Source of the DNA: Piedraia hortae CBS 480.64
Taxonomy: Eukaryota
Assembly (NCBI GenBank): GCA_010093745.1
Contig: MU005986.1
Span: forward strand, 1-64,000
DNA: 64,000 nt
Direction: 5' to 3'
Positions 30,854 to 52,176 of this stretch are shown here, one piece after another. Below the pieces are notes generated by a model, which was not told where the DNA came from, made no database searches, and saw nothing but the letters and a program-made list of their open reading frames with translations. The position numbers were made by a program, and so were the translations under genes. The stretch's first letter is position 1; the number at the start of each line of letters is the position of its first letter.

Positions 30854-32161
30854 TCAATCATCAACAGAAACCCCCCTCCATCTATCCGGAACGTAACCCC
30901 TCCCCCTGCCCACTGTCATCTTCTCCCTTGTAGACTCCATCCTAGGCGGCAGCCAAAGAACCGCATGTCCCTGTTCCAATTTCCCCGCCCTCCTCATATT
31001 CATCTCCAACACAACTACCCTTAAAAAGTCCCCATTCTCCCTAACCTCCCTCTGCCGCGAAGCGGACCTTTCCCCGCCCGGCTTCCGCCGCGAAACGTTG
31101 TACGTCTGCATCTGCACGGGCGGCAGGACGGGTGTCGTGGAGGGCTGTTCATGGAGATAGGGTGCATGAAGGGCACGTTGGAATGGGATTTCCTGTTCCT
31201 CAAAAGTAAGCTGACGAGGGGGTGGGAGGGTTGGTGGAGTTTTCGGACGGACTTCAGACGGGCTTCGTGGGAATAACCATGGGTGAGACCAGAGCATTTC
31301 GTCCGAGAAGTTTGAGCCTAGAGTTGACTGTTGCGCGGGGGTTGTTGCGTTGCGGAGGGTGAAGGATGAGGTGAGGGATGTGAGCGTTGCTTTCTTCAAG
31401 GCGCGGAGCGAGAATGTGAGGTTGGATTTGAGGGATTTGTTTGTTACCTGCTTGTGGACGGATTTAGGTTCGTATTGGATTAAAGTGGTGTTGGGGGTGT
31501 CGTCGAAGGGATCTGCTTTGTCCGCCAGCGGATGGTCGTGGGTTGAGTCTTCGCGTAGCGCTTGAGCGATCTCGCGCATGTAGTTGGTTGATTTGTGGCT
31601 ACGAGGGGACTCCGGGGAGCGAATGTTGTCGAGAGAGAACACCGACGCGTCATCGGGGTCCAACGATGGGACGCTTTCGTTGGACGGTGACGGCGACGCG
31701 GTACACGAAGCGTCAGTGTCATCGTCCAGCAAGACACTGAATCCCGGACTACCACTGTAGTTGGATCGCAATGTCGTGTCATTCTTCCAGCTCGTGAGGA
31801 GCTCGTCGACTGACATTCCCCGCGACTCGCGCTTCTTCGGCCGCAACTGGTGCGGCTTTGGTGGCGGAATCGCCGTCATGGCAAGCAAGACTGCGACCGA
31901 CGGCGGCACCGCACGCGGTGAAAGTGATCGCGGACATGACGGGGCCGAGAGAGACTGTGGTTCAGGAGAGCGACGGCGTCGATAGGTCGTTGGCACAGCT
32001 ACAGGTCGACTGCTCGCCGTTCGATGCTGCTGCGGCCCAGCCGCGCCGTTGCCATCTTCACTCATACCTGCGCCGTGTTTGTCGCTGACGAGACGTGTCA
32101 AATTTCCAGAAGGCTTGGGCCCGTCTCGCACCGGGCGCTGCTCAGATGTTGCTCGGACCAT
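30854..32161 (-). CDS. Conserved fungal hypothetical protein (Ser/Pro-rich)
   Basis: Long ORF with ascomycete-like blocks AVLLAMTAIPPP, DHPL, KSNLTFSLRALK and RQREVRENGDFLRVVVLEMNMRRAGKL. The start at MVRATSEQ is a guess. Confidence 0.65.
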   Translation of the reverse strand: MVRATSEQRPVRDGPKPSGNLTRLVSDKHGAGMSEDGNGAAGPQQHRTASSRPVAVPTTYRRRRSPEPQSLSAPSCPRSLSPRAVPPSVAVLLAMTAIPPPKPHQLRPKKRESRGMSVDELLTSWKNDTTLRSNYSGSPGFSVLLDDDTDASCTASPSPSNESVPSLDPDDASVFSLDNIRSPESPRSHKSTNYMREIAQALREDSTHDHPLADKADPFDDTPNTTLIQYEPKSVHKQVTNKSLKSNLTFSLRALKKATLTSLTSSFTLRNATTPAQQSTLGSNFSDEMLWSHPWLFPRSPSEVRPKTPPTLPPPRQLTFEEQEIPFQRALHAPYLHEQPSTTPVLPPVQMQTYNVSRRKPGGERSASRQREVRENGDFLRVVVLEMNMRRAGKLEQGHAVLWLPPRMESTREKMTVGRGRGYVPDRWRGVSVDD

Positions 32162-32368
32162 TGTTGGGCGCGGTGACGTGGTTGGGCAGGGAGATAACGC
32201 CGGGAGTTTGGGTGACGGAACGTGCCGCCCCCACATTGCCGAACATTGCCTGCACATGACGTATAGTCCCTGATCAGGTACGTCATATGCATACGTCAGA
32301 TGCAATGAAGCTGCACAAATCGTGGTTTAGTTGCATGTAGACCGCTTCATTACGTACATAGACCGAAT

Positions 32369-33548
32369 TCAGTTGCTAAGGTAGATCTGCACCATGCTGT
32401 TCTTGGTAGACAACTTGGCATTGCATCCCTCGACAACACAGCTCTTCAGCGCCGACGGCTGATCGTTCATTGGCGCCTTGCCTTTGCCTTTGCCCTTCTT
32501 CGCCGATTGGCTACGGCTTTGGGCGCACTCACCGCAATATGCCTGCCAAACCGCGTTAGCTCATCCGTCATTTGTACCTATCAATACTCACATGTCCACA
32601 CTGTTTTGCCACCCACAACTGTTGCTTCACGTCTCCGCTGCTCACAAGTAGTTCGTCTCCGCAGTTTGGACACACCACTTCTTCGTCCTCTTCGGGGTTG
32701 CGGGTAAAGCCCTCGCCGGGTGACGGGGGTGGAACATACGCCGGACTGGGATGACGCTGCCTGCTTAAAAAGCCAGAGCTTCCTATCTCGAATGCAGGCA
32801 ACGCGTAGTCCATCAGCCCGGGGAGATCGGTCAACGTCAGTGTCTGCGCAGGAAATGTACTGCTTACAGGGTACCTCCTGATTGAATGGTCCACCCTCGT
32901 CGTCAGGTGCGTGTGCGCCTCACCGATACCACGAATTCGGTTTGTTTGGCGGACGATGACGCTCCTGAAGTCCGGGTCGGAATATGTAGGGAGGTTTGAT
33001 GTGTTGCTCTCTCTAGGCCTTCGTCTTCTTTCGTCGACGATGATCACGTCGTCGTCCGTAAGGTCTATTGGTTGGTCTGCTACGTTTACCGGCCGCAGCT
33101 CGCCATGTGTTCGTCGAGGCATCGACTGGTACCGTGTGCTTGGCTCTTCGGAAAAAGACGTCCTCGTTTGCTGAGCGGACCTCCGTCTTTCTGACCCTTG
33201 TGGTATCCATCCCGATAGGCTCTCATCATCATCTGACATTACTTCAATCACATTATTTCCGACCCGGGATAGCTCCTGCGTTGCTGAGACCGGGCGAGCC
33301 GGCGGGGCTACATCGTCATCTTCCCCTGTCAGGTCCACGATGTTGTTAGTCATGCTTATCACTGGCCGCCTTAAGTCTATGCCATCGCCGAAGTATCTCT
33401 GAGCCGAGTTGGCATCGGCCGAATGGTTGGACATGCTGCTGAGTGGGATTGCGGCCTCTTCAGTGCCTGGGCGGAAGCGGTGCTGTGGGCTATAAGTCGT
33501 GCCGATGGCTGCTTCCGACGAGTCGCTATCGCTGTCGCTATCTGCCAT
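32369..33548 (-). CDS. SIM-containing RING protein, putative SUMO-targeted ubiquitin ligase subunit (Slx8/Rfp-like); intron 32591-32543
   Basis: SIM-like motifs IVDLT, VIEV, PIDLT and VIIVDE. Spliced C-terminal RING: CPNC...CGH|AYCGEC...CVVEGC, ending MVQIYLSN*. Confidence 0.72.
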
Positions 33549-36500
33549 TTGACTGAACAGCCGCTGTCATTTGGTCAGTCGCAGTTCAAATTTAGCCTAG
33601 CTTCACCCACTTTGGTGTTAATTCGGGCTGTCAGCGATCTGGCTGCACCGGGCATTTTACCGGCACCGCATAGACCGATTGCAAGTGGATAAGGAATGAC
33701 ACAACGAAGGTGCGGGCAAAGAGATTGAAACTCGTGGCGCGTGCGGCGGTGAGGAACCGATGTTCTTGCTTACGTAATATCGTTTTTGGCACCGCCGCTC
33801 CAACTATGATACCACACCCGTTTCTTGGTCTTGCAGCACTATAAAGACATTTATACTGTAGCTGCTACAATGCCGGTTCTCTTGGCAGACCACTTCATGA
33901 ATCGTTCAATTATGAGCCACTTCTGGCTTCCGGGTTGCTTGTGAACCTTTGGTGGCCCACAGCTGGTGTCAAATAGAGTTTGGCGTCGGTCCACTGAGTC
34001 TTCCCAATCAGTCAATCAGTCTGGCTTTAAACTTGTGGTAAGATAAGGCAACCCCATCTGTGTGCCATGTTGTCTACATGGTCTCAGACTTGGGGGCGCG
34101 ATATGTCTGGATCTCTACCTAATTCTACAACAGCAACATTCAATTGATCGTAATAGGCGAGTTAAACGAAACTTTAGCTGAGAGCATTCCCCTGGGCAGA
34201 AACCAGTGCACTTTGTCAAAGCCAAAGAATAAGAGCGAGAATCACATTTCAATTTAACATGTCCCCGATATCAATTAGACCTGAGAGGCGATATTGGAGG
34301 ACTCGCAGACGGTGCTGAATTGAGAAGCTACATGCAAACCTTTCAGGGAACTATCTGCCACACTTGATCCTGTGTAACTACAGGGATATTTATGGGTATT
34401 CCTGGGGCTGAACTCCAGGGACAGTACAAGCTGGATGCAAAGATGATTCGAGGTCCTGCTATCAGTCACATCGAAAAACTGTGTAGTGTCCTGGCGGTAG
34501 TTTCGGCAATGGGCAACAGACGCTGGAGATTAATCCCAACGGCGAGTGAACTCTTGTGTTGGTTACTGAGCCCGTAACGCTTAGTTCCTTGTATTTTGGG
34601 CAGACGGTGGTGATAGGGCATGTAGACAAGTCAACGGACACGAAAAATGTATACCAGAATTCCCGACACTATACTTTGAGCGACGACTTGTGGGCGGTGT
34701 TTGTGAAGCTCCTAACAATTCTCAAGACATTCTGGACCGCAATCGCACCATGGCTGTTTCGCGTGGGCAGCAACTTCATCTGCAGTATCTTTCGGCTTCT
34801 GTCATGAAGGAGCGCTTCCTCGAGGGCCAGGAGAACCTCCTCCGGCTTGGAAAAGATGTGAACATTCTTATAAAAGAAAACTGGAAAGCGCAAGCAAGAG
34901 CTGAGATTTCATCTCGCTCCAATCCTCGTCATCGGGGAGCGCAAAATAAGACGCGAGTGAATCCGGAAGATGCAGAGACACTTCGAGTTATGGAAGGGAT
35001 CATGCCGGCTACCCCTCCCTATGAACAGTTTTGTAATCGTGGCTTTGAATTCAATTGCATAAAATTGATTTGAAAATTGGACCAATCTCGGAATATTTGC
35101 CTCTGAGAGATTAACAGGCAATCGAACCTTCTCACATGATGGCTATACTTCCAGCGGTTCAGATAATTTAGAAAAGACCCCTCACTACCTAAGGATCTTC
35201 ATCACAACAAGTATGGATTTGAATCGCATCAGTCCCACTCTCCTGGGCTTGATGTACGGATCAGCAATGGACAGTCATGCTTTTGCAAGGGTGAGACAAC
35301 GGAGCTCAATTCTCATCATGGCACCAATCTTGCAATTGACCTGATACATATGTGCTCATCTGTACGCATGGGTTCAGAGAATGGAAGCATGAACAATGAA
35401 ACACAGTGTCAAGAACTACGAACTTAAAGTGTACTCATTGCAAACGGATGCCCACTGAGGGGGTCTGCCTTCGCTTGGAGCTTAATCCAGTCGCCCATTT
35501 GTGCGAGGACTGTGACTGTACCCGATTTATGCTGGCAATGTTATTTCACATCGCCTGCGCCATTCCAGGCCTTGGGCCACGGCTGTACCTACTGCGTGGT
35601 TGGATGTAGGCGTGTCAAAACGTTAACGTCCGGGTTGTACTGGACTCAACCCAAATCATGTGGATCGTCACTCGACCCTATTCAAAAGATAGGCCGAACA
35701 GTAAATTTTCCCCATCCACCTCTCGCTCAGTTATGAAACCGATGAAAACGACAAAGACTGGTTTTTGATTTATCTGCAGTTGAAGGATGTGTCACGTGAC
35801 GACTATGAACAACGTCCCCTCATTTCGACCCTGTTCAACCATACATACGTCTACGTCTTAGTGTACTCACACTATCAGTTCGTCCCCTTTAACTTCTGCT
35901 CACAGTATTAAATTATCCTCAATCGATTCCGTCAGAATCTTTCTTCCACCATTGCCAGGCCCCACGAAGAAAATTTGAGATCTCTGAAGTGCCAAGCCCC
36001 CGCGGACTGGACCGGGCCGTGCCAAGCCAAGTCCCACTTTGACTTCTTGCGCTGTAAAGTGAACTCTCTTTCGTATATGTTTTGTAGTAGAGATCTCACC
36101 CTGATTGCCTATTGTTTTGGAGTCAATTCACGGTTCTCTGCATAAATTGACCCGTCCGAAGTGCCAGAGATATTACATCCTGAAAAGTGGCTCGTCTCGT
36201 GTCCACGAACGCGTTCGTTGAAGAAGATTCAGGGCAATGAATATTGCTGTGGTTGCATGCGGTATACGTTTACAAATTTTGGTTCCCCCATGGGTGTGGT
36301 TCGCCAGGATCTCAGGCACTGTGTTCTTGCGCTGTGCTCGCTTGAGGATGCTTTGGGAGGATAAAGTGAGAAGTGCCAATTTTATGGTGCACGGTAAATT
36401 TTACCGTTGCCTAAAACGCGCCTTGGTTCAGTTTGCGCAGGCATAAAACCTATTCGGGCAAGCAGAGTCAACCAAAAGTAGCCCAGTGGGCCCTCTCCCG

Positions 36501-37323
36501 CCAAATCACCCAGGACGCTGGGCTTAACTAGGTTTAGACGTATTGACCTTGTGTGCAAGTCTCTACAGTAGCCGACTTGTTAAGTCGTGGCCGCAAACAC
36601 GCGTCTTAAGCAGTCAGCGCGAACGAAAGGAGACGTGTTTGGCACCGCCATGGAGCTTAATTCATATGTAAACAGTGTGCAAACTGGCTCCATACGTGAA
36701 GGTTTTGAGGTAGACTGGCTGCACTCACAAAGCATGCCTAGCGCGCATAATCATACCGTCACCGTGCCATAACAGTCATCCCTAGTGGATAGTTCCCCAA
36801 CGCAGAAACAGTACGCACCAGGCGGACATTGTTCATGACAAATTTCCCGCAATACTTCCATCACAGAGGAGAACGTTTGTGACTAGAAAATACCAGTTGT
36901 TCTTCACGCAATAACTGAGTTGCATAAGTGCCCGTGATGGGTTATGATCTTGTTCAATTGCCGACACGCCAAGCCTGGTCTAACTCGGGTCGAGCTGTGC
37001 CAAAAACTTATGTCATAAGCTCAGAAAATTTTCCAAGACATAGGAGAAGCAAGGCACGCGAGAACAACTTGGGAATTACAAGGGAGTAATGCAGGAGTAA
37101 CGCGGGCCGCTAGCGCCGCGCACGCCGCTATAGGAAAATTTTTAAACGACGAGACACCCTACCTTACCGCCACGCAGTTAGCTCTGCTGCACGCAGTAAG
37201 CTCTGGCGTGACTTGAATTGTACTTCTCCCACATCTGTCGCATCACGCTGTCGTTGTTTCGGTGCGTCGTAGTGCACGCCGCACTAGATAATTCTCTAGG
37301 GCCTACGAGCAACGCCAGTCGCA

Positions 37324-38393
37324 ATGTACAATTTGTTCATGGCCCAACCTGCCAATGTGCAGCGCGGGGACTATGGCCAGCTCCTGAACTCTCAAGCACA
37401 TAGTGGTGCGATGGAAAATCCTACTGCCACATCTGGGATTCCGCCAACGCAGACGGCTACTTACAACATACAGCAGCCCAATGGCTTTTCCAACGCTGTC
37501 ACGCCCGCCACTTGGGCTAGACTTTCTGCTACATACAATGGCCGGATTCCCGATGGCGTTACCAACACTGTCACACCCGTCGCTGAGAGACTCCCTGCTA
37601 CATACAATGGACGGATGCTTAACAGCGTTGCCAAAGCTGGTACATCGGCCACTTACACCATGCAGATGCGCAACAGCATTGCTAACGCTGCCATGCCGTT
37701 CAAATACCCTGTACAATGGCGTAGTAACTTTGTCAACGCTGTTGCGCCGGCCAGACCGGCTACAACTCCCGCGACGGTGCCGGACCCACGCTACCTGATT
37801 CCGACGGTACAGTGAGTGTCTTTCCATTTCATCATTGACCACCGTTTGCTGACCTCTGAAGGAACGTTATATCGGTTGTCACTTTCGACTGTCAGCTTGA
37901 CCTGGAAACCATTGCGAGCAAAGCTCCCAACTGTAAGTACGATCCCGATCGTTTTCCCGCCGTGGTTATGCGCACTCGCGATCCCAGTACCGCGGCCACG
38001 ATCTTCGAATCAGGTAAGGTCGTCGTTACAGGCGCAAGGTCTGAACGCGACAGCAGGGTTGCTGCGCGCAAGTACATGGGTATCATCCAGGAGGTCGGAT
38101 TCCGCGCCAAGTTCAAGAACATCGGGATTCATGATATTGTCCTCTTGTACAACGTCGGGTTTCCGGTTTACCTGGAAGGTATTGCAAGCACCCACCACAT
38201 GTTCAGCTCGTATGAGCCAGAGCTTTTCCCTGGATTGGTCTACAACTTGCTGCTGCTAAAGGTTAGGCTCATCATTTTTGCGACAGGCAGGATTATGATT
38301 ACAGGCGCCAGGACGCGTGGGGCTGCCTACGAGGCTTTCAATCTCTTCTACCCAGTCTTGTTGGAGTTTCGCAGGGCTCGGGGACGTGGTTAG
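37324..38393 (+). CDS. Divergent TATA-binding protein paralog (TBP-related factor) with repeat-rich N-terminal extension; intron 37812-37861
   Basis: Splicing CA|gtgagt...ctgac..gaag|G gives IPTVQNVISVVTFDCQLDLETIASKAPNCKYDPDRFPAVVMRTRDPSTAATIFESGKVVVTGARSE...SYEPELFPGLVY...IIFATGRIMITGA...YPVLLEFR, a complete two-repeat TBP core with no stops or frameshifts. Confidence 0.88.
37457..37700 (+). repeat. Degenerate coding tandem repeat, about 4 units of roughly 50-72 nt
   Basis: Units begin gc(t/c)ac(t/a)taca and encode ATYNIQQPNGFSNAVTP / ATYNGRIPDGVTNTVTP / ATYNGRMLNSVAKA / ATYTMQMRNSIANA. Confidence 0.75.
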
Positions 38394-40617
38394 AGGTGAA
38401 ATACTAATGTTCGAAGCGGGGTGGTTCACGCACGACGAGGCGTTTGGGAACCTAGCGTAGGGTAATGTCATGAGGCAGACTACACTTTGTTGTGCTTGTG
38501 TTCATGTTTGTTTGTACGGGAGTCGTGACACCAGGGCAACTGTTCTGCTTGTTTTGGCCCTGAGAAACTCGTTGAATGCTCGAATATACACTATTTATTG
38601 ACCTTGAAAGAAGCCTTCTAATTAGTGGCTCTGTTGCCACGTCAGTAAATTCAAATCAGTGGGAGAAAACTTGTGATAATATGTGCCCGCTCTCCGTATA
38701 CCTCTTTTCTTTCTACAAACATGTCTGCTAACCGGCCATACCCGTCTCGAAAAAAGTAGCGAGGTCAGACGTCGAGGTTGGAGAGGCTAAGTTTTGGGGA
38801 ATATTCACATTCATCATTGCTTGAGATGCTTCCCAGGAGGGAAGGCTTGCATTATATCTCCCTATCGTGTCTGAATGATTAGATTAATGTGAAGGGAAGC
38901 ACTGAGGATGTGCACGGACCCAGGTTCGAGCAAGATATTGTCTCGTATGGAAGCTCATGAGCTCCTGCACAGAAGTGCCTTATCTGTATAGCGCGCGCGT
39001 AACGCGTACGCGTGCGCCTGGTGAAACACACCCACGGAATAGCGATCGGATGAAAGGGTTAGCCCGTAACAATCATAATACCATCGTTGGCTCCCAAATA
39101 TTTTAACTTAACACTTTGTCGCAGTATGGTCCCACTCTCTTTACCATGTCGAGTAAGTCTGCCAAATGGAACAAGACAGATGATACGCGTTCGTTGCTTT
39201 GCAGTTTCCATTGCGTGATCAGAAGACGATATCGTAGTGGACCCAGCTTTCACGTGATATGTTACCCCACTTGTGGTGGAGCATAAAACTTTCTGTAAAG
39301 AATATATTCTGGAGTGCTAGTACACAAATATTTTTGCAGATTACATAACATTTGAATCAGTGTACACAAAAACGTTTACAAAATGCTCAAAATTTTCAGC
39401 TTAATTACAAGTTTTAGGACGAGATATGACTTTAAGATTTGATTACGTTATATAGGACCAATTCGTCAGAACCTAGGTGAAGGGCATCTTGCTCTGACCC
39501 GAACTTGAACCTTATTTCATCGATTCGATGTATGCGCCACAGAAGTGCACTGACTTGGTGGTGACATCTCCGCTTAACGCGAGCACATGGGCCCACGTAT
39601 CCGTACGAGAGTGAGGGAAGTGAAGATGGAACCACCAACATGCACGGGGACCGTAACAGCGTGGATCACTCATGGAATCTCAACCCAACAATCGGTTCAC
39701 GTGCCTGCAGAGGAAACCCCACGCTCTAGTAAGTCCTGTCACACCCATAGACTGCGCACAGCGTGGTCCGTTTTTCTCGCCATGCTGGACCAGTAGAATA
39801 GAGACGTGTCAGTAAAGAGGAAGACAAAAGGAGGTCAGCCAGTGATCCCCTTAATTCCCCACTCATCTTGCTCAAACACACACCATCTGTACCTATTCAT
39901 CCAGTATGCATTAGCTGTTCCTGTTTCTTGTTGGATTCATAAATCGCCGCTAGCGCGTATGCGGGGCGCTTGCATAGCAAGTCAGCGATACCTCCCACAC
40001 TACCAACTGCACCCTAGGTTTTCCCCTCGCAGAGGTTTTCCCTTAGGGCCATGACATATGTGACATAGCGAGTGCGCCCTGCTAGCGTATGACGTGATGT
40101 CACCGGTTCACCGGTACAGAACATTTATTCTGACGTGCCCTCGTAGGGATACATAGTCATTTACACTGTCACATCGACACTGGTATTGACTCCTACCCAT
40201 CTGCGTCTTTCCTATCCCTGTCGTTGATCTCCGTCTATCGCTACGTCCTCCTAGTCCGGGCCGCTGCACACTCCCATCCACGAGAATACTATTGCTACAT
40301 TTGTCACATTCACAGTGAGCATAGAAAAAAAAGCGTAACTTTTTCTTTTCCCATTAAAGTTCCTCTTAGACTTTAACGGGCAGTGGGATATCGCCTCAGT
40401 TTGGAAAGGGCCATCTCTATGCAGTCAACGCACACGGGGTTATGGTGACATAATCTTCTTTTTGATCAACAGAGGTTCGCACACTAACTCTTTCTCGACT
40501 GGGGACAATTCAGACTGGGTTTCTCGAATCAAAATCTTCAAGCCGCTAGCCAGGACATGAGAAGGAAAGAGAATGTTGAGGAAGATATTGATACAGAGGT
40601 TGCTTTGCACTGTTCTC

Positions 40618-42204
40618 CTACCCAAACACGTTAACAATGCCTTCAGTAGAAAGTGCTATTAGGCTCTCAGCTTTACTCCCCCACTTTGCATCGACGGATA
40701 AAAAGTCGTTGCGGAGCGGTTCAGACCACTTTTTTAAGCTTTTATTGTACTGGATAACGACGATTCCTGCTGGGCCAGAGACAAGAAGAAACTGGCCTGT
40801 GTAGTCCCAAGAGATGGTATTGATTTCGAAACCGGCATCGAGGGATTTGAGTGTAGAGAGTTTCCGCAGGTCCCATATGGTGATAAGCGCTTGTCCCGAA
40901 ACGGCTGACGCGAGCCACGTGCCGTTTTCTGAAAAGGAAAGGGAGGCAATAGGCGCCGGCGTGGAGGCGGGGAAGGTGTGCGCGAGCTGGGCAGTCTTGA
41001 CGTCGTATAATTTGATCGAACCGCTCGCGGTCCCGACAGCGATGAGGTGGCCATCCGGGTGAAATGCCACAGTGGTGAGAATCTCCCCGCAAAAGGTTTG
41101 CGTGAGTGTTTTCGAGTCGTGGATATTGTATAGGACGTAGGACTGGTCAGCACCGATTGATGCGACGATTTCTCCCCCAGGATGCGTGGCAACTGCAACT
41201 GCTGGGCCCGCATGTTGATGGAGCTTGGCCTGAACAGCTCCATCCTGCGTGACGACGATGGCTCCGCTCTCGGTTGCCACCACTGCCTTATTGTGGGCCC
41301 AGGTACCGTCAAGAACGGCGCCTGAACCGAGACTACAGCGCGTGGTAAAAGTCTGGGCAGGTAAGTCATAGACTCCTATGGTACCATCTGAGTCTCCGCA
41401 CAGGAACTTTCGAAAAATTAGCCTAGCACAGTATTGGTTGTAGATGCACATACAAAGTCACCAGTGTGGTGGGCCGCCAGAAATTTGGCGCCAGTAAACT
41501 GTGAGTCTGCCGTGGACTTGACTTGATAATGTTGAATCTTATTGCCGGTTGCCCAATCATTTGGAACCGGTCGTTTGCGCCTGGTTGATGAAAGTTTCTG
41601 CTGAACCTCATCGATGTGGGAGAGAACAGCTGGTGCAAGTCCTTGGCCGTCCAATTGCATCGGCTCCCCATCGGCCTCTGCTCCAACAGCGGCGGGAGTA
41701 AGCGAGACCCTAGCCAGTGCATCTCGAGCCTCGTCCCTTTCCTTTTGCAAACGCGCAATTACCCTTTGAGCTGCATCATTATAATACAACGCCGTCGACA
41801 GCTCTTGCCTGGCCTGAGCCAACTGTTGCTTCAATTGAAAGGCTTCAAGTGTTGCAGCATCCCACTCGTTTTGGAAGGTCGAAAGTAATGCGGGAATGGA
41901 GGTCAATTGCGGAGGTCGTGGGTGCACCAGACGTGATTGTTTCAGATCAAGCAAGTCGTTGACGCTCAATTCTTCTCCGTTAACCGGGTCAGTCCCGTTC
42001 TCGGCGATGTAAGCCTCTATCAATCGGCGCTCAAAGACATTGCCTACACCTACCGTAAGTCCGGGATTGGGTACGTATAGAAGATTACGACTAACCGCTT
42101 TTGCGACTCGCAACTGGATGTTCGGGTGTTTCGCCGGATACTGCAGCGCCGGTTAGCGATCTCCATTTTGTTCTGAGCCCAGCACACGTACTTGCGCACA
42201 GCAT
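40618..42204 (-). CDS. PRP19: Pre-mRNA processing factor 19 (U-box, coiled coil, WD40); introns 42191-42141, 42095-42044, 41453-41407
   Basis: Spliced [71 protein letters not shown] and WD repeats (FHPDGHL, FSENGTWLAS, WDYTGQFL). Confidence 0.93.
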
Positions 42205-49373: not shown

Positions 49374-51818
49374 TCACAACATGCTTCGCACTCCCTCTAG
49401 TCTCCACCTTATGTCCTTAAGTGCCTTGCTGGTAGGCCGCCATTCTTCAAACTCGTTCACCAATTGCGCCACCTCCTCTTGCATCTTGGGTTCGCGTTTA
49501 ACAATGTCTTCTTCCAGCATACCTCTTACGGCCCAGGGCAGGTAAAACGGATTGCTGGCCCCTCTATCCGTGGGAATCATGACCGAGGCGATGCCCGGCA
49601 CCTGTGCCGCAGCCGACGCCGATCCACGGCGAATGCGGTTTGCCGTTGCCATGTTGGTAGGGAGCCCTGACAATCCGGCTCGACGCTGGGCCGCTACCCT
49701 GCGTGATCGCTCGGCATCCGTAGCTAGCAGTCGATCGGCGGCAGAGGGCTGCACCGCCGTGGTGACCGTGTTGTTCACATCACTGGTCTCCAATGCAAAC
49801 TCAATGGCGTGCTTGTAGACATTCGGGTCATCGTACAGGCGACTATGGCCTTCGCCACCCATGAGACTGCCTGCAAGAGGAGCAGATACCTCGCGTAGCA
49901 AGCCATGATCGCTGATGCCCCGGTTGCGTAGCTTCAACGCAAAGGCAACCAGGTGGGCCAGGAAATCTGGGCCTCTGAGTCGCCTGTCCACAAAGACTGC
50001 GCGTGCTGCGTACGGGTGATGAAGGGGGGCGAATAGACTGCTCTCCAGCGACACCAGCTGGTCATCAAGGCTGCCAACAAACATTGCACGTACGCCATGG
50101 CGCAAGCATGTATCAACGGCCTGTGCATACTCACGACTGACGACGCTGGACGCGTTTCCAAAATCAAATAGCTCGAGTGCGCTGCCGCCGAACCAACGGC
50201 TTCGATACTCTGGGAAAGGCCCGAGATTGATACCAGCCATGGCGCAGATGCCGATGCGCGTGCGGGGGCTGATGGCATTCATCCTGATGAGCTTAGCCAC
50301 AAGCATAAATGCCACTGGTACTCCCTGGGAATGACAGGCCACCAGGATGAAGTTGGCCTGACGTAGGTGGTCCAGCCAGTTGAGCAGCAGCTTCCACAAC
50401 GTTGCAACTCGGTCGGCAATGACGCCCTCGCCTTCCAGCGCCACCTTTTCGATTTCGACGTCAGAGATCGTCGGCTGATGTTCCTGACACCAGCTTTGGA
50501 TCGCATCTGCCGCATGGTTGGCGAAGCGGATTGATGTCCCTGTCGGTGGACCCAACACCCTCTGGATGAGCGGGGCCGGGACATATCCGTGTACACCGAT
50601 AGCGACCGCTTTCTTGACCAGCAGTGGCGATGATACAATGTAGGGATGGCTTGGGGGTGGCTCGCTGTCTTGCAAGCGCAGTTTCTGGGCCAGTGACGTT
50701 GATAGTCGTTCCAGATATCCTGGTTGAACCTGGAGTGGGTACGTGTCCCGAAGCGAGGGGAGGATATGATTTCGACGCCGCAGCTTGGTGCTCGTATCCG
50801 AAGTGTCTGTATGGATGTTGGTATCCTGTACCTCGTCTTCTGCCTCTGCCTTTTCATCAGTAGGTTGGGTCTGGTGTTCTTCAAACTGAGCAGCTTCGGG
50901 GTGGCTTTGGCTCGGTGTATCAGCCACAGCCAGTTCTCCAACCTCCTTGTGCGGACCATCAGTACTGTTCGCCCGAGATTTCCTATTGCCTGCCCAAAAG
51001 GCCCAACCTGTCGATTTCCGCGGTTTCGAGTCTGATTTGGCCTTGCCAGCTACATCGGCAGCTGAATCAAGGAATTCGGCCTCTGGCGCCTCAGGTTGCA
51101 GGTCCATCTGCGCCTCTGCCACTGCATGTTCATTTTGTTCCTTTGACCAGCGGCTGAACCACATGCGTGACGAACGAAAGCTTTGGTAGAGGTCAGGACG
51201 CTGGTTATCTTGCCGTTCGGCCATTGATTCCGACCCTTGTACGGTTGGAGATGCAGAGGAATCTGGTGCAGTCTCTTTTACCCCATTTGCAGCACTTTCA
51301 TCTTCCACTTTTCTCCGCTTGGAATCACTCTTATCCTCATCGCTACCGTATCCATCAGGTCTAGACCACCAGCCAAACCAGGTGCCTGCCTGTTGTGCCA
51401 GCTTATAAGTATTGTCTTTGATAGCTGAAGAATCCTTGGGGTCCAATGACGCACGTCTGAAGGCTTCTGGACCAAATCCGAGGGGTTGTTCCCCGCCCGT
51501 CTTTGCGATGATGGCATGGACGCGGGTTTCCTCGGCCACCAGCGGGCCGCTCTTCCGCGAACCACGCAGGCCTTTGCTGACAGACTGGTTGGGTCGCTGA
51601 GCAGTTTCGCTTGCTTCAGACGTGGCACCGCCCGTTACCGAGACGCTCTCGTTGGCAATCTGAGTGATTGCGCCGGCTTTTGTACGCCATGAGCCCCCAT
51701 TATACCAGCTGCGCGCGCGGGGCGGCTTTTTATCCGCGTCGGTCGTTGAGGGATCAGGCTTGTTATCTTTGTTCTCATCGGCAGCGGTCTTGCTGCCCTT
51801 TTGACGGCCAGAAGCCAT
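49374..51818 (-). CDS. YML020W-like conserved fungal protein (alpha/beta-hydrolase-like C-terminal half)
   Basis: Motifs KKAVAIGVHG, GPPTGTSIRFA, IEKVALEGEG, ACHSQGVPV, AMAGINLGPF, DQLVSLESS, GEGHSRLY and NPFYLPWAVRG. Confidence 0.78.
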   Translation of the reverse strand: MASGRQKGSKTAADENKDNKPDPSTTDADKKPPRARSWYNGGSWRTKAGAITQIANESVSVTGGATSEASETAQRPNQSVSKGLRGSRKSGPLVAEETRVHAIIAKTGGEQPLGFGPEAFRRASLDPKDSSAIKDNTYKLAQQAGTWFGWWSRPDGYGSDEDKSDSKRRKVEDESAANGVKETAPDSSASPTVQGSESMAERQDNQRPDLYQSFRSSRMWFSRWSKEQNEHAVAEAQMDLQPEAPEAEFLDSAADVAGKAKSDSKPRKSTGWAFWAGNRKSRANSTDGPHKEVGELAVADTPSQSHPEAAQFEEHQTQPTDEKAEAEDEVQDTNIHTDTSDTSTKLRRRNHILPSLRDTYPLQVQPGYLERLSTSLAQKLRLQDSEPPPSHPYIVSSPLLVKKAVAIGVHGYVPAPLIQRVLGPPTGTSIRFANHAADAIQSWCQEHQPTISDVEIEKVALEGEGVIADRVATLWKLLLNWLDHLRQANFILVACHSQGVPVAFMLVAKLIRMNAISPRTRIGICAMAGINLGPFPEYRSRWFGGSALELFDFGNASSVVSREYAQAVDTCLRHGVRAMFVGSLDDQLVSLESSLFAPLHHPYAARAVFVDRRLRGPDFLAHLVAFALKLRNRGISDHGLLREVSAPLAGSLMGGEGHSRLYDDPNVYKHAIEFALETSDVNNTVTTAVQPSAADRLLATDAERSRRVAAQRRAGLSGLPTNMATANRIRRGSASAAAQVPGIASVMIPTDRGASNPFYLPWAVRGMLEEDIVKREPKMQEEVAQLVNEFEEWRPTSKALKDIRWRLEGVRSML

Positions 51819-52176
51819 GTGACGTGTTGCTGTAGAGTCGGGGGATTTCCCCGCATCAGGAAGGCGGGGTGGCGGGGTTCGGAAAGACTCTTCAGCAGTC
51901 TCTTAGGTATGCAATCACATGTATATCTTGTTCTCACCGCATGAGGAGCTAATCTTGGGAAGAGAGCCTCGCATCGGAGATCTTCTGCCAAAAGGAAATT
52001 AACTCGCATAGAAATAGATGGCATTCCCCCTGACCTGTCAAGAAACTGTCAATGTCATATGATATCATCATCTGAAAAGCGGACAGAGCTCGGTCCGGTC
52101 CGAGCCTAGTGTGCTCGGAAATACCCGTGTGCCCACCGCAACTTGCCAAAAAATATTCAGCGGTACGAGATAGGCA

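What the first reader, a model, noticed from the sequence alone, without database searches (positions are those of the whole stretch)
37324..38393. Intact but highly divergent second TATA-binding protein with an altered DNA-contact surface
Seen: a spliced, uninterrupted two-repeat TBP core. My by-eye alignment to the S. cerevisiae TBP core (from memory) gives only about half identity. Established: canonical ascomycete TBP cores are very highly conserved, so this is probably not the housekeeping copy. Yeast numbering: the four intercalating Phe (99, 116, 190, 207), N69, T124, T215 and the TFIIB stirrup YEPELF are retained. Changed: QNIVGS(158-163) to HDIVLL (N159D), A100P, K110S, L114T, R196N, V203R, L205I, plus charge reversals E93K, K97D and K145E on cofactor-binding surfaces. 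Positions 194/203/205 are those of the classic altered-specificity yeast TBP. Inference: a fungal TBP-related factor that still engages TFIIB but may read a non-TATA core promoter, like metazoan TRFs, or act as a dominant competitor.
Basis: partly seen in the sequence, partly recalled or inferred. Interest (0 to 1): 0.82.

Follow-up and report, generated by a model that had tools for sequence, protein, structure and literature searches.

The report
Divergent second TBP gene in Piedraia
A hair-colonising black fungus carries, beside its normal TATA-binding protein, a second, expressed and strongly diverged copy whose DNA-reading surface is rebuilt while its TFIIB-docking loop is untouched, so it may start transcription at a different kind of promoter.

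Summary
Window 37324-38393 (+) is a two-exon gene (intron 37812-37861) for a 339-aa protein. Its 172-residue core is a gapless two-repeat TBP domain (Pfam E 2.5e-48; AlphaFold core pLDDT 96-98). Its product is 100% identical to a database protein named as from Piedraia hortae CBS 480.64. That strain also has a canonical TBP on another contig, 96 of 172 core residues identical (55.8%).

No protein in two very large libraries is closer than 59%, so the copy is an orphan paralogue. The N-terminal domain is colinear with, and best matches, Piedraia's own TBP. The intron has the site and phase of a canonical TBP gene. This points to a DNA-level duplication in this lineage.

One sequencing-run contig carries the spliced junction. 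Replacements are far more conservative than simulated drift, so the gene is not decaying. The four kinking Phe and a 15-residue block holding the TFIIB stirrup are kept. Fifteen of 28 DNA-face positions are changed, five to states seen in 0 of 239 TBP-family proteins (L114T, N159D, S163L, V203R, V213M).

The function, a TRF-like factor with altered promoter reading, is inferred and not shown.

The parts
37324..37811 (+). Exon 1: N-terminal domain (162 codons plus the first two bases of the Gln codon). It is colinear with the N-terminal domain of the canonical Piedraia TBP and carries an internal expansion of about 77 aa.
   Evidence: The frame is open from 37300 and the first in-frame ATG is at 37324. 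BLASTP of P0002 against P0005 aligns residues 5-60 with 5-64 (E 3e-5) and residues 138-162 with 61-85 (E 0.002). A run contig covers 37502-37811, upstream of the database model's ATG at 37693.
37447..37653 (+). Three tandem copies of a 66-72 nt unit inside exon 1 (peptide theme ..ATYNGR..V.N.V.P..). They account for much of the N-terminal expansion.
   Evidence: the repeat finder family D1 has 3 copies, spacing 72 and 69, 67-73% identical to the reference copy. TRF reports 37477-37616, period 72, 2.0 copies, 80% matches.
37812..37861 (+). Intron of 50 nt, GT..AG, phase 2 in the Gln codon just before the core (yeast Q68|N69).
   Evidence: Read from the sequence. A contig of run X1 joins 37811 to 37862, skipping 50 nt with GT..AG ends. 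A canonical TBP gene on genomic metagenome locus L075 has an intron at the same site and phase, and the rest of its core is intronless.
37862..38393 (+). Exon 2: the whole two-repeat TBP core plus a 4-5 residue basic tail (…RRARGRG) and stop TAG at 38391-38393.
   Evidence: Translation. Pfam TBP E 2.5e-48. Gapless to yeast TBP 69-239. AF2 core pLDDT 96-98. Foldseek TM 0.93-0.96 and rmsd 1.0-1.5 A to solved TBPs.
37863..38123 (+). TBP repeat 1 (yeast 69-155). It keeps F99, F116, N69 and T124. DNA-face changes are V71I, T73V, A100P, I103V, T112A and L114T. The N-terminal stirrup is altered (R90P, A92C, E93K, N95D, K97D).
   Evidence: There are 37 differences in 87 columns.
38124..38378 (+). TBP repeat 2 (yeast 156-240). 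It keeps F190, F207, P191 and T215. DNA-face changes are N159D (codon 38133-38135), S163L, I194V, R196N, V203R (codon 38265-38267), L205I, S209T, K211R and V213M.
   Evidence: There are 39 differences in 85 columns. Strand S1' (yeast 152-165) is only 4 of 14 identical.
38193..38237 (+). C-terminal stirrup block HHMFSSYEPELFPGL (yeast 179-193), 15 of 15 identical to the canonical copy. It holds E186, E188 and L189, known as TFIIB contacts (recalled).
   Evidence: This is the longest identical run. It is reached in 47 of 5000 permutations of the match vector at window 15.

Best explanation
SHOWN. This is a real, spliced gene for a second member of the TBP family. By 100% protein identity the genome is Piedraia hortae CBS 480.64, which also encodes a canonical TBP.

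The copy arose by DNA-level duplication of a Piedraia/Capnodiales-type TBP gene, N-terminal domain and intron included. Its normally almost invariant core then diverged to 56% identity while the saddle fold was kept under purifying selection.

INFERRED mechanism.
- The protein still sits on the DNA minor groove and kinks it with its four phenylalanines.
- It still presents an unchanged C-terminal stirrup to TFIIB or a TFIIB-like factor such as Brf1.
- Its second repeat, which reads the upstream half of the TATA box, is remodelled: N159D, V203R, R196N, S163L, V213M, I194V, L205I. These include all three positions that give yeast TBPm3 its TGTA tolerance. L114T lies in the first repeat.
- Its TFIIA-side stirrup carries charge reversals (E93K, K97D).

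It therefore most likely acts as a TRF-like alternative core-promoter factor. It would nucleate initiation complexes on a subset of promoters whose -30 element departs from TATA, possibly tolerating G:C pairs in the upstream half, with altered dependence on TFIIA and TBP regulators.

My confidence is about 0.9 for the shown part and about 0.45 for the mechanism.
For: Family and fold:
- Pfam TBP E 2.5e-48; gapless alignment to yeast TBP 69-239.
- AF2 mean pLDDT 90.0, core blocks 96-98.
- Foldseek top hits are all TBP, TM 0.93-0.96 normalised to the target.

Paralogue status:
- P0003 (100% identical) and P0005 (canonical type) both carry the strain name and sit on different contigs.
- P0005 is 83.1-97.7% identical to the 110 other canonical cores. 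The paralogue is 52.9-57.0% identical to all 111.

Orphan:
- Among the 120 listed of 425 hits of 96-308 aa, the best non-self identity is 57%.
- Among 36 longer proteins it is 57%.
- Among the 150 best of 5906 hits in 1.84 billion representatives it is 59%, and only over partial stretches.

Origin:
- The N-terminal domain is colinear with P0005 from residue 5 (E 3e-5).
- P0005 is the best match for it among 303 TBP-family proteins, at 33.5 bits against 25.4 for the next.
- The intron has the same site and phase as canonical locus L075.
- GC3 of 0.56-0.64 lies within the window's genes, 0.57-0.73.

Expression: a run contig of 424 nt (depth 7.7) joins 37811 to 37862 across the intron.

Selection:
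- NG86 dN 0.32-0.36 and dS 1.09-1.70 in 11 of 12 comparisons, with 1 undefined.
- Mean BLOSUM62 of replacements is 0.22, against -0.57 (sd 0.19) in stop-free neutral simulations; 0 of 2000 reach it.
- Hydrophobic positions kept: 0.90 against 0.78 (1 and 4 of 2000 reach it).
- Gly/Pro kept: 13 of 15.

Surfaces:
- 15 of 28 DNA-face positions are changed, 6 of 14 in repeat 1 and 9 of 14 in repeat 2.
- L114T, N159D, S163L, V203R and V213M are each seen in 0 of 239 TBP-family cores.
- The block at yeast 179-193 is 15 of 15 identical; 47 of 5000 permutations reach this.

Literature:
- TBPm3 positions lie at the second TATA base pair (PMC1636458 passages).
- The C-terminal part of TBP faces the 5' end of the box (PMC3142196 passages).
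Against: - No binding, promoter or phenotype data exist.
- The pairwise omega of about 0.2-0.3 is much higher than the canonical 0.003-0.02. That fits plain relaxation as well as neofunctionalisation, and dS is saturated. The comparison also used canonical CDS of other fungi, because the Piedraia canonical CDS was not available.
- The intact reading frame alone is weak evidence. 220 of 3000 and 147 of 3000 neutral simulations reach the same divergence with no stop.
- N159D puts an acidic side chain against the minor groove, and R196N removes a likely phosphate contact. Together they could simply weaken DNA binding rather than retarget it.
- The protein tree cannot place the copy. Its end branch sits at the program's ceiling of 10 and it nests without support among basidiomycetes. 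At lineage-informative sites it matches basidiomycetes at 9, Dothideomycetes at 8.
- The paralogue's N-terminal domain is less like P0005 (36%, 33.5 bits) than P0005 is like orthologues of other families (45-56%, 66-78 bits). The age of the duplication is therefore open.
- Run X1 is only guessed to be RNA and is served as contigs. It shows presence of the spliced form but not its level, ends or strand. The stretches 37976-38309 and upstream of 37502 have no cover.
- The list of 28 DNA-face positions and the TFIIA/TFIIB contact residues are recalled from the structural literature and were not computed here.
Confidence: 0.45

Rival explanations
1. Competitor or decoy. The copy keeps the TFIIB/Brf1-docking stirrup but binds promoters poorly, or not productively. 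It would titrate TFIIB-type factors, TFIIA or TBP regulators away from the canonical TBP and tune global initiation. TLF was reported to do this to TFIIA in animals.
For: The stirrup block is perfectly kept (15 of 15). The centre of the DNA face is hit by changes unseen elsewhere, N159D and V203R, each 0 of 239. TLF 'negatively modulates transcription by sequestering TFIIA' (PMC3142196 passages).
Against: All four kinking Phe, N69, T124, T215, R98, R105, K120 and P191 are retained. A pure protein-binding decoy would have no need for them. The TFIIA-side stirrup is itself altered (E93K, K97D, R90P), which argues against TFIIA titration.
Confidence: 0.2
2. Relaxed, largely redundant duplicate. 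It would be a still-folded TBP copy with weakened TATA binding and no distinct job, drifting under reduced constraint and eventually to be lost.
For: dN is 20-100 times that of canonical TBPs over a similar dS. The copy changes 35 of 99 columns that are invariant in 111 fungal TBPs. It is known from one strain only. An intact frame is not improbable under neutrality, at 5-7% of simulations.
Against: Replacements are strongly conservative; 0 of 2000 simulations reach the observed mean BLOSUM62. Hydrophobic and Gly/Pro positions are kept. There is no indel across 172 columns. Conservation is non-uniform, with one functional loop untouched. The spliced form is present in a run. The host has the smallest genome and the fewest genes of 101 Dothideomycetes (PMC7082219 passages), which does not suggest tolerance of useless genes.
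Confidence: 0.2
3. Polymerase-specific TBP. Like insect TRF1 with Brf1, the copy would take over initiation by one polymerase (Pol III or Pol I), or a subset of its genes, using the conserved stirrup for a TFIIB-like factor.
For: TRF1 is 63% identical to the TBP core and is mostly bound to Brf1 (PMC3142196 passages), a comparable degree of divergence. The retained stirrup is the common docking site of TFIIB-family factors (recalled).
Against: Nothing in the sequence distinguishes Brf1 from TFIIB use. Helix H2 residues that Brf1 also uses are partly changed (R141G, K145E, K156G). The canonical TBP is present and unremarkable.
Confidence: 0.1
4. Fast-evolving sole orthologue, or an assembly or contamination artefact.
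For: None found.
Against: A canonical TBP from the same named strain exists. The paralogue's N-terminal domain best matches that very protein. The gene lies among ordinary housekeeping genes (Prp19, class II aldolase, HAM1-like, SCC3, BRCT protein) with matching GC3.
Confidence: 0.01

Closest known systems
Canonical fungal TBP (S. cerevisiae Spt15, PDB 1YTB/1RM1/7O4I; Chaetomium thermophilum TBP 7Z7N; Piedraia hortae canonical copy P0005)
   Same: Same Pfam family, with a gapless two-repeat core and the same predicted saddle fold. The four Phe, N69, T124, T215 and the C-terminal stirrup are kept. The exon-intron layout matches a canonical gene, and the N-terminal domain is homologous.
   Different: Identity is 55.8% where fungal orthologues share 80-100%. 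The copy changes 35 of 99 invariant columns, among them N159D, L114T and V203R. It has a longer N-terminal domain with tandem repeats and a basic C-terminal tail.
Insect TRF1 (TBP-related factor 1)
   Same: A lineage-restricted TBP duplicate of similar divergence (63% core identity) that still uses the TBP fold and TFIIB-family partners (PMC3142196 passages).
   Different: It is not orthologous, because the Piedraia copy derives from a Piedraia-type TBP. TRF1 binds TATA and Brf1 experimentally; nothing is known here.
Metazoan TLF/TRF2/TBPL1
   Same: A divergent TBP paralogue that keeps TFIIA/TFIIB interaction while its promoter recognition is changed (PMC3142196 passages).
   Different: TLF is about 40% identical and has lost an intercalating Phe and TATA binding (PMC10005294 and PMC3142196 passages). 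The Piedraia protein keeps all four Phe.
Vertebrate TBP2/TRF3/TBPL2
   Same: A second TBP with a different N-terminal domain.
   Different: TBP2 is 95% identical in the core, with all DNA contacts unchanged (PMC3142196 passages). TBPL2 proteins are only 47-52% identical to this protein.
Yeast altered-specificity mutant TBPm3 (I194F, V203T, L205V)
   Same: [quoted passage not shown]
   Different: The residues are different, and they are accompanied by N159D, S163L, R196N and V213M. TBPm3 is a laboratory mutant shown to bind TGTA. The specificity of the natural protein is unknown.

Membership tests
TBP family (Pfam PF00352, TATA-binding protein fold) | Two tandem TBP repeats detected by the family profile | tested here: met
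   PF00352 at E 2.5e-48, 162.3 bits against a cut-off of 22.9, two stretches.
TBP family (Pfam PF00352, TATA-binding protein fold) | Saddle fold (two alpha/beta repeats, ten-stranded sheet, four helices) | tested here: met
   AF2 core pLDDT is 96-98, with the expected order of strands and helices. Foldseek to solved TBPs gives TM 0.93-0.96 and rmsd 1.0-1.5 A. This is a prediction, not a solved structure.
TBP family (Pfam PF00352, TATA-binding protein fold) | Two pairs of DNA-kinking phenylalanines (yeast F99/F116, F190/F207) | tested here: met
   All four are present in the gapless alignment.
Canonical (housekeeping) fungal TBP orthologue | Core at least about 80% identical to other fungal TBPs | tested here: not met
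   52.9-57.0% to 111 canonical cores, which share 80.2-100% among themselves.
Canonical (housekeeping) fungal TBP orthologue | Central Asn pair (N69/N159) and the hydrophobic DNA face (L114, V203, V213, L205) unchanged | tested here: not met
   N159D, L114T, V203R and V213M are each seen in 0 of 239 TBP-family cores; L205I in 3 of 239.
Canonical (housekeeping) fungal TBP orthologue | Being the only TBP gene of the genome | tested here: not met
   A canonical copy, P0005, from the same named strain lies on another contig. The whole genome itself could not be searched.
TFIIB-competent TBP-type factor | Acidic C-terminal stirrup (yeast E186, E188, L189) intact | tested here: met
   Yeast 179-193 is 15 of 15 identical to the canonical copy. 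The role of these residues is recalled from the literature. Binding itself was not tested.
TFIIA-competent TBP-type factor | N-terminal stirrup and helix H2 contacts unchanged | tested here: inconclusive
   A86, N91, R107, R137, K138 and Y139 are kept and K133R is conservative. R90P, A92C, E93K, N95D and K97D are changed. The contact list is recalled.
Metazoan TRF families (TRF1, TLF/TRF2, TBP2/TRF3) | Orthology to one of these clades | tested here: not met
   The N-terminal domain and the intron tie it to a Piedraia-type TBP gene. TBPL2 proteins are more distant (47-52%) than fungal TBPs. No TRF1 or TLF sequence was compared directly.
Functional TBP-related factor (works like a TRF) | Distinct promoter set or partner set shown experimentally | not testable with these tools
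   Needs DNA-binding, interaction and genetic experiments.

The most novel reading that the evidence does not exclude
This would be a naturally evolved altered-specificity TBP, and the first TBP-related factor described in a fungus.

After a lineage-specific duplication, the second repeat was reshaped: an Asp in place of the universally conserved central Asn159, an Arg at 203, and Thr at 114. The protein would then accept non-TATA elements, perhaps containing G:C, in the upstream half of the box, while still recruiting TFIIB through an untouched stirrup.

That would define a separate core-promoter class in the most gene-poor Dothideomycete.
Probability: 0.3. Interest if true: 0.75.

Novelty: new variant of a known kind. 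Interest (0 to 1): 0.58.

Why it matters
TBP is among the most conserved eukaryotic proteins. Diverged, non-redundant paralogues are described for animals and for archaea. The reviews and analyses I read treat yeast and fungi as single-TBP organisms (PMC7221094 section 14; bioRxiv 10.1101/2025.10.03.680374 passages; PMC3142196 passages).

My four literature searches returned no paper on a diverged fungal TBP paralogue. They cover only the held open-access library.

If the Piedraia copy is a working initiation factor, three things follow:
- It would show that core-promoter diversification by TBP duplication also happens in fungi.
- It would give a natural counterpart to the engineered TBPm3.
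- It would offer a simple system, with a small genome and two TBPs, to ask which TBP surfaces can change without losing the fold or TFIIB docking.

If it is only a relaxed duplicate, it is still a rare natural record of which TBP positions tolerate change.

Tried and rejected
- Whole-genome search for further TBP genes: not possible, because no genome is held for this window. A third, more distant copy in the strain is therefore not excluded. Only the best 120 of 425 hits were listed.
- tblastn of the core against the window: no second copy in these 64 kb. The next hit has E 0.46.
- Protein phylogeny of 45 cores: uninformative for the paralogue. Its end branch is at the ceiling of 10 and its placement among basidiomycetes has no support. 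AU tests reject neither paralogue plus Piedraia TBP (p 0.189) nor paralogue plus Dothideomycetes (p 0.27). Lineage-informative sites are split: basidiomycetes 9, Dothideomycetes 8, early-diverging fungi 7, Sordariomycetes 6, Pleosporales 5.
- My first idea was that three core introns had been lost, pointing to a retrocopy. It came from retained-intron artefacts in P0094, P0111 and P0121. I dropped it because a canonical gene (L075) has exactly the paralogue's layout.
- All 80 metagenome loci gave single tblastn segments, so they say little about introns elsewhere.
- YN00 dN/dS failed with a math error in 11 of 12 pairs because of saturation.
- RNA evidence: no listed holder is on record as RNA. 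The single run X1 is only guessed to be RNA and is served as contigs. There is no cover of 37976-38309 or of anything upstream of 37502.
- Bacterial promoter/terminator scan: not applicable to a eukaryote and ignored.
- Repeat search of 33500-41000: no flanking repeats or transposon remains that would explain the duplication. The flanks are not AT-rich.
- Exon 1 has no Pfam family.
- One Pfam call on flank frames failed because my coordinates included stops. I did not repeat it.
- Earlier scan notes: nothing on this genome, this sequence or fungal TBPs.
Full report
1. WHAT IS THERE

On the + strand an ATG at 37324 opens a frame that runs to 37811. A 50-nt GTGAGT..AG intron (37812-37861) splits a CA|G glutamine codon. 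A second exon runs from 37862 to the TAG at 38391-38393. The product is 162 + 1 + 176 = 339 residues.

The exon-2 product (P0001) matches Pfam TBP (PF00352) at E 2.5e-48 with two matched stretches. It aligns to yeast TBP residues 69-239 without a single gap (1rm1_A). Its best solved relative is Chaetomium thermophilum TBP (7z7n_D, E 3.2e-60).

The window holds no second copy.

An AlphaFold2 model of the stored database product P0003, built with a 44-row alignment, has mean pLDDT 90.0 and 96-98 across the core. Only the N-terminal 30 residues are uncertain. Foldseek returns solved TBPs with target-normalised TM 0.93-0.96 at about 1.2 A.

2. WHOSE GENE, AND IS IT THE ONLY TBP?

No whole genome is held for the window. 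A search of 5.8 billion clustered proteins found P0003, 100% identical over the core, 216 aa, named 'TBP-domain-containing protein [Piedraia hortae CBS 480.64]'.

The same search found a second protein from that strain, P0005 (258 aa, different contig), at 56%. P0005 is a normal TBP. Its core is 83.1-97.7% identical to 110 other fungal TBP cores and differs from their consensus at four positions.

For that comparison I used 111 canonical cores (65 distinct). I dropped the two rows of the paralogue itself and eight mis-modelled or partial rows (P0044, P0089, P0094, P0095, P0111, P0118, P0120, P0121).
- The canonical cores are 80.2-100% identical to one another (median 89%).
- The paralogue is 52.9-57.0% identical to them, and 96 of 172 to P0005.
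- Of 99 columns invariant in all 111, the paralogue changes 35.

3. IT IS AN ORPHAN
- Apart from itself, the best identity among the 120 listed of 425 hits (96-308 aa) is 57%.
- Among 36 longer proteins (309-2000 aa) it is 57%.
- In an exhaustive phmmer scan of 1.84 billion cluster representatives (5906 hits at E <= 0.001, best 150 listed) nothing exceeds 59%, and that only over partial stretches.

No orthologue of the diverged copy is therefore visible in any other sequenced organism in these libraries.

4. WHERE IT CAME FROM

The core tree is useless for placing the copy. Its end branch sits at the ceiling of 10 and its position among basidiomycetes has no support. AU tests do not reject a sister relation to Piedraia's TBP (p 0.189) or to Dothideomycetes (p 0.27). 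Lineage-informative core sites are split, although H180-M181 is a Dothideomycete state.

Two other lines are clearer.

(a) The N-terminal domain, which evolves fast and is lineage-specific, is colinear with P0005.
- Residues 5-60 align with 5-64 (E 3e-5), and residues 138-162 align with 61-85 (E 0.002).
- Between the two homologous ends lies an insertion of about 77 residues, which includes three tandem 66-72-nt units.

(b) The intron sits at the same site and phase as in a canonical TBP gene on genomic metagenome locus L075: CTG CA|gtaagt...tttag|A AAC ATC. There too the rest of the core is intronless.

Together these indicate a DNA-level duplication of a Piedraia/Capnodiales-type TBP gene, and neither a retrocopy, an ancient fungal paralogue nor a foreign gene. 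GC3 (0.56 and 0.64) is in the range of neighbouring genes, 0.57-0.73.

The colinear N-terminus also shows that ATG 37324 is the true start, and that the 216-aa database model starting at 37693 is truncated.

A caveat on age: P0005's N-terminal domain is closer to orthologues in other families (45-56% identity, 66-78 bits) than the paralogue's is to P0005 (36%). Either the duplication is old or the copy's N-terminus also sped up.

5. IS IT ALIVE?

One public run (X1; its RNA status is a guess, and it is served as contigs) holds a 424-nt contig at depth 7.7. The contig covers 37502-37811 joined directly to 37862-37975, skipping exactly the 50-nt GT..AG intron. Two further contigs cover 38310-38871. 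The spliced form therefore exists, and it extends at least 190 nt upstream of the database model's start.

Against 12 canonical-type coding sequences, NG86 gives dN 0.32-0.36 and dS 1.09-1.70 (one dS undefined). Canonical pairs give dN 0.0025-0.017 at dS 0.5-1.2. The pairwise omega of about 0.2-0.3 is below 1 but 10-100 times the canonical value, and dS is saturated.

The intact frame alone proves little. Unconstrained simulated drift to 76 of 172 replacements leaves no stop in 220 of 3000 and 147 of 3000 runs. The kind of replacement is decisive:
- Mean BLOSUM62 of replacements is 0.22, against -0.57 +/- 0.19 in stop-free simulations; 0 of 2000 reach it.
- Hydrophobic positions stay hydrophobic at 0.90 against 0.78; 1 and 4 of 2000 reach it.
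- 13 of 15 Gly/Pro are kept; 21 and 30 of 2000 reach it.

There is also no indel across 172 columns. The fold has been under purifying selection. This is not a decaying pseudogene.

6. WHICH SURFACES CHANGED

Conservation is uneven.
- The longest identical run against P0005 is 15 residues, yeast 179-193 (HHMFSSYEPELFPGL). A run that long arises in 47 of 5000 permutations. It is the C-terminal stirrup with E186, E188 and L189, known as TFIIB contacts (recalled).
- The least conserved element is strand S1' (yeast 152-165), 4 of 14 identical. It carries Q158H, N159D, G162L and S163L.
- In the N-terminal stirrup, the TFIIA side (recalled), R90P, A92C, E93K, N95D and K97D are changed, while A86, N91 and R107 are kept.
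- In helix H2, R137, K138 and Y139 are kept and K133R is conservative, but R141G, K145E and K156G are changed.

I compiled a list of 28 concave-face positions. The list comes from my recollection of the TBP-TATA co-crystal literature and the repeat symmetry; it was not computed from coordinates. I scored the positions in 239 TBP-family cores that were near-complete among 304 session proteins. That set consists of the best hits to this protein, so it is mostly canonical TBPs and TBPL2.
- The paralogue is changed at 15 of 28 positions, 6 of 14 in repeat 1 and 9 of 14 in repeat 2.
- L114T, N159D, S163L, V203R and V213M each occur in 0 of 239.
- T73V, T112A and S209T each occur in 1, R196N in 2, V71I and L205I in 3, and K211R in 4.
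- Kept are F99, F116, F190, F207, N69, R105, S118, K120, V122, T124, V161, P191 and T215.

Positions 194, 203 and 205 are all changed here. [quoted passage not shown] The C-terminal part of TBP faces the 5' end of the box (PMC3142196 passages).

7. MECHANISM

Shown: a folded, selected, spliced, lineage-specific second TBP.

Inferred:
- It still kinks DNA, because it keeps the Phe pairs.
- It still docks a TFIIB-family factor, because the stirrup is intact.
- It reads the upstream half of its site differently.
- It probably deals differently with TFIIA and with regulators that use helix H2.

An Asp at 159 cannot donate the hydrogen bonds that the conserved Asn gives to minor-groove acceptors, but it could accept one from a guanine amino group. 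Arg203 and Thr114 add polar groups where TBP is normally hydrophobic. This is why I favour tolerance of non-TATA, possibly G:C-containing, elements. It is chemical reasoning, not a result.

The rivals are a decoy/competitor, a relaxed redundant duplicate, and a polymerase-specific TBP like TRF1. They are set out with their tests in the Rival explanations section.

8. COMPARISON AND NOVELTY

In divergence the protein lies between insect TRF1 (63% core identity, binds TATA, partners Brf1) and TLF/TRF2 (about 40%, no TATA binding, binds TFIIA and TFIIB). It is far from TBP2/TRF3 (95%) (PMC3142196 passages). It is orthologous to none of them.

The sources I read place diverged TBP paralogues in animals and describe yeast as lacking them:
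- PMC7221094 section 14.
- bioRxiv 10.1101/2025.10.03.680374 passages.
- PMC3597702 passages.
- PMC6672047 passages.

Four searches of the held library returned no paper on a diverged fungal TBP paralogue, and a fifth, on the species name alone, listed none that treats one; none of its 15 listed papers concerns transcription factors, and I read passages of only one of them. Subscription literature and supplements were not seen.

The gene product is already in public databases under a generic name, with a truncated model. P. hortae has the smallest genome (16.95 Mb) and the fewest genes (7,572) of 101 Dothideomycetes (PMC7082219 passages). That makes retention of a useless duplicate less likely.

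9. VERDICT
- Observation: confirmed.
- Interpretation: partly supported. Paralogue status, intactness, the retained stirrup and the altered DNA face are supported; function is untested.
- Kind: a new variant of a known kind, a fungal, lineage-specific TBP-related factor with a DNA face not seen in 239 other family members.
- Interest: moderate to high for transcription specialists, limited by its being a single-strain orphan without functional data.

Noticed in passing
window 37324-37692: The public protein model for this gene (P0003, 216 aa) starts at the ATG at 37693. Homology of the upstream frame to the canonical TBP N-terminus, and a run contig reaching 37502, indicate that the true start is 37324 (339 aa).
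   Followed up: yes
window 37447-37653: Three tandem 66-72 nt units lie inside the N-terminal coding region, 67-73% identical to the reference copy. They give a repeated ..ATYNGR..V.N.V.P.. peptide theme, and two imperfect inverted repeats lie nearby (37621-37747). The purpose of the expansion is unknown.
   Followed up: partly
protein P0123 (representative library): A 376-aa protein matched the core in two stretches with 392.8 bits in total at 55% identity, as if it held two complete TBP cores in tandem. Its origin is unknown and I did not examine it.
   Followed up: no
proteins P0094, P0111, P0121: These are canonical Dothideomycete-type TBP models with in-frame insertions of 31, 18 and 18 residues that begin with Val (GT.) and end with Gln or Lys (.AG). 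They look like unspliced introns after yeast V161, K97 and S209. Some relatives therefore have core introns that L075 and the paralogue lack.
   Followed up: partly
window 35074-37299 and 38394-40617: The paralogue sits alone in about 5.5 kb with no other frame of 130 aa or more on either side. These are wide gaps for a genome reported as very compact. I found no flanking repeats, transposon remains or AT-rich stretches.
   Followed up: partly
window 38579-38871: A contig of run X1 covers the region downstream of the gene and ends at 38871 with 29 loose letters that lie on nothing in the stretch. It could be a long 3' UTR, a neighbouring transcript or a splice to elsewhere.
   Followed up: no
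window 30854-32326 (-), 32568-33566 (-), 34585-35073 (+), 49374-51902 (-): Long open frames of 490, 332, 162 and 842 aa have no Pfam family at E <= 0.001.
   Followed up: no
window 38011-38039 and 38284-38312: The two TBP repeats are still recognisable at the DNA level: a 29-nt direct repeat, 72% identical, at 273-nt spacing, covering the SGK.V.TGA motif of each repeat.
   Followed up: no
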